Assembly (NCBI RefSeq): GCF_009914755.1
Contig: NC_060935.1
Direction: 5' to 3' (one strand)
Origin: the human T2T-CHM13v2.0 reference genome, Homo sapiens
DNA length: 64,000 bases
A program made the position numbers and the translations under genes. A model generated the notes under the pieces. It was not told the origin of the DNA. It was given only the letters and a program-made list of their open reading frames with translations, and searched no databases. Shown piece by piece: positions 39,430 to 42,400 of this stretch. Position 1 is the stretch's first letter. Each line of letters begins with the position of its first letter.

Positions 39430-42400
39430 GCCACATTTTCTTAATCCAGTCTATCGTTGTTGGACATTTGGGTTGGTTCCAAGTCTTTGCTATTGTGAAT
39501 AGTGCCACAATAAACATACGTGCGCATGGGTCTTTATAGCAGCATGATTTATAATCCTTTGGGTATATACCCAATAATGGGATTGCTGGGTCAAATGGTA
39601 TTTCTAGTTCTAGATCCCTGAGGAATCGCCACACTGACTTCCACAATGGTTGAACTAGTTTACAGTCCCACCACCAGTGTAAAAGTGTTCCTGTTTCTCC
39701 ACATCCTCTCTAGCACCTGTTGTTTCCTGATTTTTAATGATTGGCATTCTCACTGGTGTAAGATGGTATCTCATTGTGATTTTGATTTGCATTTCTCTGA
39801 TGGCCAGTGATGATGAGCATTTTTTCATGTGTCTGTTGGCTGCATAAATGTCTTCTTTTGAGAAGTGTCTGTTCATATCCTTCGCCCACTTGTTGATGGG
39901 GTTGTTTGTCTTTTTCTTGTAAATTTGTTTGAGTTCATTGTAGATTCTGGATATTAGCCCTTTGTCAGATGAGTAGATTGCAAAAATTTTCTCCCATTCT
40001 ATAGGTTGGCTGTTCACTCTGATGGTAGTTTCTTTTGCTGTGCAGAAGCTCTTTAGTTTAATTAGATCCCATTTGTCAATTTTGTCTTTTATTGCCATTG
40101 CTTTTGGTGTTTTGGACATGAAGTCCTTGCCCATGCCTATGTCCTGAATGGTAATGCCTAGGTTTTCTTCTAGGGTTTTTATGGTTTTAGGTCTAACGTT
40201 TAAGTCTTTAATCCAACTTGAATTGATTTTTGTGTAAGGTGTAAGGAAGGGATCCAGTTTCAGCTTTCTACATATGGCTAGCCAGTTTTCCCAGCACCAT
40301 TTATTAAATAGGGAATCCTTTCCCCATTGCTTGTTTTTCTCAGGTTTGTCAAAGATCAGATAGTTGTAGATATGCGGCGTTATTTCTGAGGGCTCTGTTC
40401 TGTTCCATTGATCTATATCTCTGTTTTGGTACCAGTACCATGCTGTTTTGGTTACTGTAGCCTTGTAGTATAGTTTGAAGTCAGGTAGTGTGATGCCTCC
40501 AGCTTTGTTCTTTTGGCTTGGGATTGCCTTGGCGATGCAGGCTCTTTTTTGGTTCCATATGAACTTTAAAGTAGTTTTTTCCAATTCTGTGAAGAAAGTC
40601 ACTGGTAGCTTGATGGGGATGGCATTGAATCTGTAAATTACCTTGGGCAGTATGGCCATTTTCACGATATTGATTCTTCCTACCCATGAGCATGGAATGT
40701 TCTTCCATTTGTTTGTATCCTCTTTTATTTCCTTGAGCAGTGGTTTGTAGTTCTCCTTGAAGAGGTCCTTCACATCCCTTGTAAGTTGGATTCCTAGGTA
40801 TTTTATTCTCTTTGAAGCAATTGTGAATGGGAGTTCACTCATGATTTGGCTCTCTGTCTGTTGTTGGTCTATAAGAATGCTTGTGATTTTTGTACATTGA
40901 TTTTGTATCCTGAGAGTTTGCTGAAGTTGCTTATCAGCTTAAGGAGATTTTGGGCTGAGACAATGGGGTTTTCTAGATATACAATCATGTCATCTGCAAA
41001 CAGGGACAATTTGACTTCCTCTTTTCCTAATTGAATACCCTTTATTTCCTTCTCCTGCCTGATTGCCCTGGCCAGAACTACCAACACTATGTTGAATAGG
41101 AGTGGTGAGAGAGGGCATCCCTGTCTTGTGCCAGTTTTCAAAGGGAGTGCTTCCGGTTTTTGCCCATTCAGTATGATATTGGCTGTGGGTTTGTCATAGA
41201 TAGCTCTTATTATTTTGAAATACGTCCCATTAATACCTAATTTATTGAGAGTTTTTAGCATGAAGGGTTCTTGAATTTTGTCAAAGGCCTTTTCTGCATC
41301 TATTGAGATAATCCTGTGGTTTTTGTCTTTGGCTCTGTTTATATGCTGGATTACATTTATTGATTTGCGTATATTGAACCAGCCTTGCATCCCAGGGATG
41401 AAGCCCACTTGATCATGGTGGATAAGCTTTTTGATGTGCTGCTGGATTCGGTTTGCCAGTATTTTATTGAGGATTTTTGCATCAATGTTCATCAAGGATA
41501 TTGGTCTAAAATTCTCTTTTTTTGTTGTGTCCCTGCCCGGCTTTGGTATCAGAATGATGCTGGCCTCATAAAATGAGTTAGGGAGGATTCCCTCTTTTTC
41601 TATTGATTGGAATAGTTTCAGAAGGAATGGTACCAGTTCCTCCTTGTACCTCTGGTAGAATTCGGCTGTGAATCCATCTGGTCCTGGACTCTTTTTGGTT
41701 GGTAAACTATTGATTATTGCCACAATTTCAGCTCCTGTTATTGGTCTATTCAGAGATTCAACTTCTTCCTGGCTTAGTCTTGGGAGAGTGTATGTGTCGA
41801 GGAATGTATCCATTTCTTCTAGATTTTCTAGTTTATTTGCGTAGAGGTGTTTGTAGTATTCTCTGATGGTAGTTTGTATTTCTGTGGGATCGGTGGTGAT
41901 ATCCCCTTTATCATTTTTTATTGTGTCTATTTGATTCTTCTCTCTTTTTTTCTTTATTAGTCTTGCTAGTGGTCTATCAATTTTGTTGATCCTTTCGAAA
42001 AACCAGCTCCTGGATTCATTAATTTTTTGAAGGGTCTTTTGTGTCTCTATTTCCTTCAGTTCTGCTGTGATTTTAGTTATTTCTTGCCTTCTGCTAGCTT
42101 TTGAATGTGTTTGCTCTTGCTTTTCTAGTTCTTTTAATTGTGATGTTAGGGTGTCAATTTTGGATCTTTCCTGCTTTCTCTTGTGGGCATTTAGTGCTAT
42201 AAATTTCCCTCTACACACTGCTTTGAATGTGTCCCAGAGATTCTGGTATGTTGTGTCTTTGTTCTCGTTGGTTTCAAAGAACATCTTTATTTCTGCCTTC
42301 ATTTCGTTATGTATCCAGTAGTCATTCAGGAGCAGGTTGTTCAGTTTCCATGTAGTTGAGCGGTTTTGAGTGAGATTCTTAATTCTGAGTTCTAGTTTGA

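What the first reader, a model, noticed from the sequence alone, without database searches (positions are those of the whole stretch)
39430..40091. Crossover that created the repeat unit can be mapped to about 80 bp
Seen: 39430-40009 differs from the equivalent part of unit 1 (33796-34376) at about 30 positions counted by eye (~5%, including a 1-bp deletion), with older residues such as AANRH and PIEWEK. The last difference is at 40009. From then on the sequence matches unit 1, including the private AMAIKDK variant (40091). The ORF translations show the same switch in units 3-6. Inference: a single non-allelic homologous recombination between host and insert at ~40010-40090 made a chimeric unit, and later expansion used the resulting perfect 5.6-kb homology.
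Basis: partly seen in the sequence, partly recalled or inferred. Interest (0 to 1): 0.75.

Follow-up and report, generated by a model that had tools for sequence, protein, structure and literature searches.

The report
Founding junction of chr11 L1 array
A 5.6-kb LINE-1 tandem array on human chromosome 11 grew after one L1 landed inside an older L1; every unit switches from old to young sequence in the same 81 bases, but the far end of the array shows that more than one exchange took place.

Summary
Unit 1 (33796-39429) and unit 2 (39430-45062) differ at 30 positions, the last at 40009, then at only 3 of the next 5053 bases. The A at 40091 is private to the young L1: 0 of 37 other L1 copies carry it. 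The switch therefore lies in 40010-40090.

I fetched the rest of the array. All 16 chimeric units share this switch.

The anatomy is a nested insertion. A 6.0-kb L1 (33425-39426, minus strand) has a poly(A) tail and a 13-bp target-site duplication. It sits inside an older, 5'-truncated L1 in the same orientation.

The distal copy (129557-132304) is not pure host. It is host, then young (offsets 581 to about 2020), then host again.

At least two host/insert exchanges therefore occurred. The 81-bp switch is either the founding crossover (about 0.6) or the edge of an earlier gene-conversion tract (about 0.2).

The array itself is already in print in a 2026 preprint, as a polymorphic L1 array (0-15 units in HPRC haplotypes, 16 in CHM13). 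Its origin and this junction are not described there. The mechanism is a known kind.

The parts
33041..33424 (-). 3' end (384 bp, with a 9-nt poly(A) seen as T9 on +) of the older host L1, cut off from the rest of the host by the young insertion
   Evidence: TRF finds 33041-33808 as 2 copies of 384 bp at 88%: the host 3' end followed by the young L1 3' end. Sequence read.
33412..33424 (.). Left target-site duplication GCCATATTTTCTT
   Evidence: Read. It matches 39430-39442 at 12 of 13 bases. The pre-insertion site reads ...TTTTCTT/AATCC, which resembles the L1 endonuclease target (consensus recalled, not tested).
33425..39426 (-). Young full-length L1 ('Y', 6002 bp including the 11-nt poly(A) at 33425-35). 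From 33796 on it is unit 1 of the array.
   Evidence: The L1 5' end, in reverse complement, ends at 39426. ORF1 is open at 338 aa (37523-38539) and ORF2 is interrupted.
39427..39429 (.). 3-nt filler (TTC) between the L1 5' end and the target-site duplication
   Evidence: Alignment; junction string.
39430..39442 (.). Right target-site duplication GCCACATTTTCTT; the host L1 resumes here. Start of unit 2.
39430..40009 (-). Host-type segment of the chimeric unit (offsets 1-580): 30 differences from Y, including a 1-bp deletion that shifts the ORF2 frame
   Evidence: At 10 of 10 family-diagnostic sites it carries the older-family allele.
40010..40090 (.). Switch interval (81 bp) from host-type to young-type sequence. 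Same interval at +5633n in units 3-17 (1 bp less from unit 15 on) and in the distal copy.
   Evidence: The last host allele is at 40009. The first young-private allele is A at 40091, absent from 37 of 37 panel copies. T at 40085 is a weaker marker (older panel G in 14 of 17).
40010..45062 (-). Young-type segment of unit 2 (offsets 581-5633), running to the L1 5' end
   Evidence: 3 differences from unit 1 in 5053 bp.
40888..40948 (.). Two sites (40888 and 40948, offsets 1459 and 1519) where units 2-17 read T,T while unit 1 and the distal copy read G,C
   Evidence: All 37 panel copies read T,T. Young-private alleles at offsets 1440, 1487 and 1651 are kept in the units.
39430..64000 (-). The part of the chimeric array inside the window: units 2-5 whole (39430, 45063, 50696 and 56329 are their starts) and the first 2039 bp of unit 6 (from 61962). 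The array continues outside the window to 129556 in window-based coordinates. In all there are 16 chimeric units of 5633 bp; unit 14 is 5632 bp.
   Evidence: 17 junctions at 39410...129537, spaced 5633 bp with one of 5632 (on the window plus loci L003-L010 fetched). Units differ at 0-3 sites from unit 2.
61962..64000 (-). Placeholder row for the distal (terminal) copy, which lies OUTSIDE the window at 129557-132304 in window-based coordinates (locus L009 5557-8304). The coordinates in this row are only the last in-window unit. In the distal copy, offsets 1-580 are host type and 581 to about 2020 young type. Offsets 2021-2748 are host type (7.0% from Y), after which L1 homology ends.
   Evidence: The right switch lies between offset 1904/1885 (young alleles) and 2021 (first host allele).
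39422..39434 (+). Match to the degenerate 13-mer CCNCCNTNNCCNC, formed by the L1 5' end, the filler and the target-site duplication; repeated at every unit junction
   Evidence: 7 matches in the window. 5 are this junction site and none lies in 40010-40090.

Best explanation
SHOWN: the insertion. A young L1 (Y, 33425-39426, minus strand) retrotransposed into an older, 5'-truncated L1. It landed in the same orientation, 384 bp from the host's 3' end. This placed two homologous stretches (2748 bp, 93-95% identical) as direct repeats 5634 bp apart.

INFERRED: the founding exchange. A misaligned, homology-driven exchange between the host remainder and Y took place in 40010-40090. It joined host offsets 1-580 to Y offsets 581-5633 and made the first chimeric 5633-bp unit.

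SHOWN: all 16 units carry this one junction.

INFERRED: the expansion. Further unequal exchanges between near-identical units expanded and homogenised the array to 16 units in CHM13.

INFERRED and SPECULATIVE: the second exchange. A second host/insert exchange then overwrote offsets 581 to about 2020 of the distal host remainder with young sequence. The most economical version is one intrachromatid non-crossover between the first unit and the adjacent remainder. It copied the young tract into the remainder and left two host alleles (T,T at offsets 1459 and 1519) in the unit. That gives the observed pattern: unit 1 = G,C, interior = T,T, distal copy = G,C.

The confidence of 0.6 is for this whole history, including the order crossover first. 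The general mechanism alone (nested insertion, misaligned homologous exchange, expansion) I hold at about 0.9.
For: - Nested insertion: two L1 3' ends in tandem. There is a poly(A), a 13-bp target-site duplication matching at 12 of 13 bases, and a 3-nt filler at the 5' junction.
- Chimeric unit: 30 differences in 580 bp, then 3 in 5053 bp, with no indel at the switch.
- One origin: 16 of 16 units carry the same host alleles at the 30 sites, with one CpG exception.
- Interval bounds: host allele at 40009; the A at 40091 is absent from 37 of 37 other L1 copies.
- Crossover first: units 2-17 read T,T at offsets 1459 and 1519. This is the state of 37 of 37 other L1 copies and so probably that of the pure host. 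Unit 1 and the distal copy share G,C. A source of T,T exists only if a unit coexisted with a still-pure remainder, or if the unit was founded before G,C arose.
- Weak timing hint: the distal copy differs from the units at 2 of 580 host-part sites. It differs from unit 1 at only 1 of 1440 young-tract sites. That order fits an older split for the host part, but Fisher p = 0.20.
- Population variation: the preprint 10.64898/2026.05.14.725010 reports 0-15 units in 94 haplotypes (section read), which fits ongoing unequal exchange.
Against: - The distal copy carries the same left switch as the units. That is what a conversion-first history predicts directly.
- The pure host sequence for offsets 581-2020 is nowhere in CHM13. 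The host side of the interval therefore rests on panels of other L1 copies, not on the host itself.
- The founding exchange would have occurred in sequence where the longest known identical run between Y and host is 89 bp. That is short for efficient homologous exchange (threshold recalled).
- The T,T sites are not one continuous tract. The young-private G at offset 1487 lies between them and is kept, so patchy repair must be invoked.
- The polarity of G,C against T,T is unresolved. No sibling of Y was among the 22 non-array matches scored.
- Interior variant placement depends on correct assembly of a 96-kb near-identical array, which I could not check.
Confidence: 0.6

Rival explanations
1. 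Gene conversion first. Before any duplication, Y converted offsets 581 to about 2020 of the adjacent host remainder, giving the mosaic now seen at the distal end. The new 1.3-1.4 kb of perfect identity then served as the substrate for unequal crossover somewhere inside that tract. On this reading the shared switch at 40010-40090 is the left edge of a conversion tract. The founding crossover left no trace and cannot be mapped.
For: - The distal copy has the same left switch as the units plus a right switch at offsets 1905-2020.
- Its young tract equals unit 1 at all but 1 of 1440 sites, including G,C at 1459 and 1519.
- Y and the pure host share no known identical run longer than 89 bp. A converted tract would supply the long identity that unequal crossover favours (requirement recalled).
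- Only one exchange in diverged sequence is then needed, not two.
Against: - Both parents of the first unit would carry G,C, yet all 16 units read T,T.
- Both changes hit young-private sites and both restore the state of 37 of 37 other L1 copies. That is very unlikely for two random mutations.
- It is also not one continuous conversion tract, because the private G at 1487 is kept. A third, ad hoc event is needed.
- The per-site differences (2 of 580 host part against 1 of 1440 young tract) run opposite to this order of events, though not significantly.
Confidence: 0.22
2. Same anatomy, but T,T is ancestral. The first unit was founded by a crossover at 40010-40090 while Y still read T,T. Unit 1 later gained G and C by mutation. 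Unit 1 then converted the distal remainder. That tract stopped at the same left edge because a dense mismatch cluster just left of it blocks heteroduplex extension.
For: - The densest mismatch cluster in the host part (8 in 33 bp, offsets 548-580) abuts the switch.
- 4 of the 19 young-private sites in 2.1 kb lie within 80 bp (offsets 1440-1519). This hints at local hypermutation.
- No other L1 scored carries G,C, as expected for new mutations arising in place.
Against: - It needs two clustered new mutations, plus a conversion across the intervening units, plus two independent tracts ending in the same 81 bp.
- Array edges usually keep ancestral states (general knowledge, not tested here).
Confidence: 0.1
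3. The chimeric unit arose by replication-based template switching or break-induced replication between Y and the host remainder, not by a reciprocal crossover. Expansion also came from replication slippage between units.
For: The junction is in homologous register, which a homology-driven template switch would also give. Nothing in one assembly separates the two mechanisms.
Against: There is no microhomology-only junction, inserted sequence or inversion at any of the 17 junctions. Those features usually accompany replicative rearrangements (recalled).
Confidence: 0.06

Closest known systems
Polymorphic chromosome 11 LINE-1 array described in bioRxiv 10.64898/2026.05.14.725010 (May 2026). I read section 10 whole and passages. 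Supplements were closed and not seen.
   Same: It is the same locus (hs1 chr11:94,140,954-94,254,695). The preprint reports tandem L1 units longer than 5.6 kb with a 5'UTR and intact ORF1 but non-intact ORF2. It gives 16 copies in CHM13 and 0-15 in 94 HPRC haplotypes. It notes older L1 pieces on both flanks, labelled L1P1 at the 3' side and L1PA2 at the 5' side.
   Different: The main text attributes the array to 'local duplication and rearrangement' only. The words unequal, crossover and chimeric occur 0 times, and nested occurs once in another context. The nested insertion, the host/young chimeric unit, the 81-bp switch and the mosaic distal copy are not described there. I count 17 L1 5' ends (Y plus 16 units) against their '16 back-to-back' copies. 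Their 5'-flanking 'L1PA2' is probably the mosaic distal copy (inference).
Double insertion of transposable elements as seed of tandem arrays (McGurk and Barbash 2018, PMC5932611). I read the abstract and the section on non-LTR elements.
   Same: A transposable element inserts into another copy of its own family. This gives a tail-to-internal tandem junction that can later expand by unequal exchange. They report a hobo expansion to about 16 copies.
   Different: That work is in Drosophila, from short reads, and does not reconstruct exchange points. Here the two copies are 5-7% diverged subfamilies. The first exchange is therefore visible as a chimeric unit, and a second exchange is visible at the array's edge.
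LINE-LINE-mediated nonallelic homologous recombination in humans (Startek et al. 2015, PMC4344489). I saw only the search listing and the start of the abstract.
   Same: Exchange between two L1 copies in direct orientation, in homologous register, giving a chimeric L1 at the junction.
   Different: As I recall, those events are mostly deletions or duplications of unique sequence between distant L1s. Here the two L1s are nested and nothing but L1 is duplicated. The product is a macrosatellite-like array.
Human macrosatellites and composite arrays (Hoyt et al. preprint 10.1101/2021.07.12.451456; passages read)
   Same: Kilobase-scale units in tandem. Copy number is attributed to unequal crossing over, and units are homogenised.
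   Different: That text has 0 occurrences of chr11 or chromosome 11, so this array is not discussed in its main text. The unit here is a single, almost full-length L1 rather than a composite.

Membership tests
Tandem array seeded by nested (double) insertion of a transposable element | A second copy of the same element family is inserted by transposition into the first, in the same orientation | tested here: met
   There is a poly(A), a 13-bp target-site duplication (33412-33424 and 39430-39442) and host L1 coordinates contiguous across the insert.
Tandem array seeded by nested (double) insertion of a transposable element | The same head-to-internal junction is repeated at every unit boundary | tested here: met
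   17 junctions match a 41-nt junction string at 3 or fewer mismatches. Spacing is 5633 bp, with one of 5632 bp.
Tandem array seeded by nested (double) insertion of a transposable element | Copy number varies between individuals through unequal exchange | not testable with these tools
   Only one assembly is held here. The preprint reports 0-15 units in 94 haplotypes.
L1-L1 nonallelic homologous recombination product | A chimeric element that switches once between the diagnostic sites of the two parents, in register and without an indel | tested here: met
   30 host alleles are followed by young alleles, with no gap at the switch.
L1-L1 nonallelic homologous recombination product | The untouched second parent remains beside the product (pure host remainder at the distal end) | tested here: not met
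   The distal copy is a host/young/host mosaic.
L1-L1 nonallelic homologous recombination product | Substrates are long and highly identical (thresholds recalled: about 1 kb or more, more than about 95-97%) | tested here: inconclusive
   There are 2748 bp of homology at 94.8% and 93.0% in the parts where the host is known. The longest identical run is 89 bp. The host is unknown for offsets 581-2020.
PRDM9-motif-associated meiotic hotspot | The 13-mer CCNCCNTNNCCNC lies in or next to the exchange interval (motif recalled) | tested here: not met
   There is no match in 40010-40090. The nearest is at the unit junction 39422-39434, 576 bp away. Hotspot activity itself is not testable here.

The most novel reading that the evidence does not exclude
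The array may keep a readable record of one non-crossover exchange between two repeats that are 5-7% diverged, with both partners preserved on the same chromosome. The recipient (the distal host remainder) took up about 1.4 kb of young sequence. The donor unit took up two isolated host alleles (T,T at offsets 1459 and 1519) and was then amplified 16-fold. That would be a natural example, in the human germline, of exchange in both directions with patchy mismatch repair between diverged L1s. It would also make the locus a dated series: insertion, founding crossover, conversion, expansion. The series could be tested across pangenome haplotypes.
Probability: 0.25. Interest if true: 0.5.

Novelty: new member of a known kind. 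Interest (0 to 1): 0.35.

Why it matters
It gives a concrete origin for a large, highly copy-number-variable human L1 array that so far has only been described. An ordinary retrotransposition into an older L1 created direct repeats, and homology-driven exchange turned them into a macrosatellite-like array. In CHM13 the array holds 17 L1 promoters and 16 open ORF1 copies.

It shows in a human genome the 'double insertion seeds a satellite' route that was proposed from Drosophila data.

The two diverged parents act as natural markers. Exchange points, conversion tracts and the order of events can therefore be read base by base. They can be tested in pangenome and ape assemblies.

It is a mechanistic refinement of a known locus and a known mechanism, not a new kind of element.

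Tried and rejected
- Host target-site duplication: I looked for one flanking the whole structure, comparing 33000-33050 with 132270-132420. No shared word of 8 bases or more was found. That the two host pieces belong to one element therefore rests on contiguous L1 coordinates across the young insert's target-site duplication.
- PRDM9 motif: none in the switch interval. The junction match is one site repeated with the unit, so the apparent excess (7 against 0.94 expected) is not independent evidence.
- Polarising G,C against T,T: I searched for siblings of Y in the same genome. Of 40 matches scored, 18 are the array itself and the best of the other 22 is 98% identical. No sibling was found and polarity stays open.
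- Narrowing the 81-bp interval: among the older-panel copies, no family-level diagnostic site lies between offsets 581 and 655. It cannot be narrowed without the pure host.
- Panel rows dropped: 3 of the 20 older-panel copies (L014, L021, L030) were dropped before counting, because they align poorly left of offset 2021.
- One continuous conversion from a consensus-like L1 as the source of T,T: rejected, because the private G at offset 1487 lies between the two sites and is kept.
- Two random mutations as the source of T,T: rejected as very unlikely, because both hit young-private sites and both restore the common state.
- Single-event models: rejected. In a duplication product the distal copy comes from the chromatid whose remainder did not take part.
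- Literature: three searches and a look in the Hoyt et al. preprint found no other account of this array. One search found the McGurk and Barbash paper and the Startek et al. paper. Subscription journals and closed supplements were not searched.
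Full report
**1. The observation**

The window holds a tandem array with a period of 5633 bp (23515 shared 40-mers at that lag).
- Self-similarity at lag 5634 begins at 33796.
- It moves to lag 5633 after a 1-bp indel and becomes perfect from about 34377.

A gapped alignment of 33760-34500 with its partner shows homology starting at 33796/39430.
- There are exactly 30 differences between 33822/39456 and 34376/40009: 29 substitutions and one missing base opposite 34097.
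- Beyond that point unit 1 and unit 2 differ at 3 of 5053 positions.
- At the 5.2% divergence of the first 580 bp, the chance of no difference in the next 878 bp is about 2e-20. The switch is real.

- AANRH (39829-39843) and PIEWEK (39988-40005) occur in unit 2 only.
- AMAIKDK occurs in both units (40081-40101 and 34448-34468).

**2. Anatomy**

The L1 sequence lies on the minus strand.
- TRF reports 33041-33808 as two copies of 384 bp at 88%. Reading the sequence shows that these are two L1 3' ends in a row.
- The first (33041-33424, with T9) is the tail of an older 'host' L1. It ends in GCCATATTTTCTT.
- Then comes a run of 11 T and a complete younger L1 ('Y'). Its 5' end lies at 39426.
- Three filler bases follow, and then GCCACATTTTCTT (39430-39442), after which the host L1 resumes.
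- Y is therefore a normal retrotransposition: poly(A), a 13-bp target-site duplication, and a target TTTTCTT/AATCC that resembles the L1 endonuclease site as I recall it.
- It went into an older L1 in the same orientation, 384 bp from the host's 3' end.
- The position in Y homologous to the insertion point is 33796. This is why the repeat period is 5634/5633 bp.
- ORF1 is open (338 aa). ORF2 is interrupted in Y and in the units.

**3. The whole array**

The window's genome is held as G000. I fetched the 80 kb that follow the window. Coordinates above 64000 continue the window's numbering.
- A 41-nt junction string recurs 17 times, from 39410 to 129537. Spacing is 5633 bp, with one interval of 5632 bp.
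- The array is therefore Y, then 16 chimeric units, then a distal partial copy.
- All 16 units carry the host allele at the 30 diagnostic sites. The only exception is an A at offset 27 in unit 3, which is a CpG position.
- Units differ from unit 2 at 0-3 sites.

**4. Bounding the switch**

I built two panels of other L1 copies from the same genome.
- Panel one: 20 relatives of the host part, of which 3 were dropped for poor alignment left of offset 2021.
- Panel two: 20 relatives of Y.
- The A at 40091 (offset 662) is shared by unit 1, unit 2 and the distal copy. It is absent from 37 of 37 panel copies.
- The T at 40085 is a weaker marker (older panel G in 14 of 17).
- No family-level diagnostic site lies between offsets 581 and 655.
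It cannot be narrowed further in this assembly.

**5. The distal end**

This is where the simple model fails. The distal copy (129557-132304) is not pure host.
- Offsets 1-580 are host type, with two private differences at offsets 149 and 460.
- Offsets 581 to about 2020 are young type. They are identical to unit 1 except at one site. They carry the young allele at 30 of 30 sites where Y differs from the older-panel majority.
- From offset 2021 the sequence is host type again: 51 differences in 728 bp, or 7.0%.
- L1 homology ends at offset 2748.
- The right switch lies between the young alleles at offsets 1885/1904 and the host allele at 2021.

In an unequal crossover, the distal copy of the duplication product comes from the chromatid whose remainder took no part. 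One exchange therefore cannot produce this mosaic. At least two host/insert exchanges occurred.

**6. A second clue**

- At offsets 1459 and 1519 (40888 and 40948), unit 1 and the distal copy read G,C. All 16 interior units read T,T.
- All 37 panel copies read T,T.
- The units keep young-private alleles at offsets 1440, 1487 and 1651. So T,T is not one continuous tract copied from a typical L1.
- Two random mutations would hardly both hit young-private sites (about 1% of positions) and both restore the common state.
- A search for siblings of Y, which could polarise these sites, found none. Of 40 scored matches, 18 are the array and the best other match is 98%.

**7. Weighing the histories**

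(a) Crossover first.
- The exchange at 40010-40090 made the first unit beside a still-pure remainder.
- One later non-crossover between that unit and the remainder put the young tract into the remainder and two host alleles into the unit.
- This explains every observation in two events. It does require patchy repair and an intrachromatid event.

(b) Conversion first.
- Y converted the remainder, and unequal crossover then used the 1.3-1.4 kb of identity.
- This explains the shared left switch directly and needs only one exchange in diverged sequence.
- It leaves T,T without a source.

(c) T,T ancestral.
- G,C arose in unit 1 and was later copied to the remainder.
- This needs two tracts ending in the same 81 bp.
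- That is less of a coincidence than it seems, because the densest mismatch cluster (8 in 33 bp, offsets 548-580) abuts the switch and could stop heteroduplex extension.

- I put about 0.6 on (a), 0.22 on (b) and 0.1 on (c), so about 0.7 that the switch marks the founding exchange.
- A further 0.06 goes to a replication-based origin of the same junction.
- The general mechanism (nested insertion, then homology-driven misaligned exchange, then expansion) I hold at about 0.9.

**8. PRDM9**

The recalled 13-mer has 7 matches in the window and none in 40010-40090.
- Five are the unit junction itself (39422-39434 and its repeats). That site is created by the L1 5' end, the filler and the target-site duplication.
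- It is one site copied with the unit, 576 bp from the switch. I draw nothing from it.

**9. What is known**

The array is in print.
- The preprint 10.64898/2026.05.14.725010 describes this locus as 16 back-to-back L1HS copies in CHM13 and 0-15 units across 94 HPRC haplotypes.
- It also reports two clusters of units, intact ORF1 and older L1 flanks (section 10 read whole; passages).
- Its main text never uses the words unequal, crossover or chimeric.
- The mechanism class is known from McGurk and Barbash 2018 (PMC5932611; abstract and one section read), and from work on LINE-LINE recombination (PMC4344489; listing only).
- The Hoyt et al. repeat preprint does not mention chromosome 11 in its main text.
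- Three searches found no other account of the array.

**10. Verdict**

- This is a well-resolved origin story for a known polymorphic L1 array, and a human instance of a known route from transposon to tandem array.
- The added finding is that the array's edge records a second exchange.
- Interest is moderate (0.35).

Caveats:
- The labels L1HS, L1PA2 and L1P1 are the preprint's.
- My reading of Y's 3'UTR trinucleotide as non-Ta, the subfamily ages and the identity thresholds for recombination are all recalled, not tested.

Noticed in passing
window 40888 and 40948 (offsets 1459, 1519), and the same offsets in all units; distal copy at 131015 and 131075 (outside the window): Units 2-17 all read T,T, as do 37 of 37 other L1 copies. 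Unit 1 and the distal copy, at opposite ends of the array, share G,C. Young-private alleles between and beside the two sites are kept in the units. Polarity is unresolved.
   Followed up: partly
window 39422-39434, repeating every 5633 bp: The junction of the L1 5' end, the TTC filler and the target-site duplication happens to spell a match to the degenerate PRDM9 13-mer. The insertion itself created one such site per unit.
   Followed up: partly
ORF1 of each copy, e.g. window 37523-38539, 43156-44172, 60055-61071: ORF1 (338 aa) is open in 16 of 17 copies; unit 5 has a stop at codon 49. Units 3, 5 and 7 share a T30M change. ORF2 is interrupted in every copy examined.
   Followed up: partly
units 2-17 (offsets 3099, 3784, 4655): Interior variants are shared by non-adjacent units. 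C at offset 3099 occurs in units 2, 3, 7, 15 and 17. A at 4655 occurs in units 3, 5 and 7. T at 3784 occurs in units 14 and 16. This suggests repeated unequal exchange or conversion within the array.
   Followed up: no
extended coordinates 107026-112657 (unit 14, outside the window): Unit 14 has a 1-bp deletion at offset 2617 and is 5632 bp long. This causes the one register shift in the array.
   Followed up: yes
window 33796-35900 (Y): Y carries 19 alleles in 2.1 kb that 1 or none of the 37 panel copies share. They are clustered: offsets 565, 566 and 571; four within 1440-1519; 1718 and 1726. No close sibling of Y was found in the genome. Y therefore looks older than a typical human-specific L1.
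   Followed up: partly
distal copy, extended coordinates 129705 and 130016 (offsets 149, 460; outside the window): Two differences separate the distal copy's host part from the units. At both sites the units agree with Y and with nearly all panel copies (37 of 37 at offset 149, 36 of 37 at offset 460). They may be old host-private alleles that the units lost, or new mutations in the distal copy.
   Followed up: no
whole array, 33425-132304 (extends beyond the window): I count 17 L1 5' ends (Y plus 16 chimeric units). The preprint speaks of 16 back-to-back copies in CHM13. The difference is probably in how unit 1 or the mosaic distal copy is labelled.
   Followed up: no
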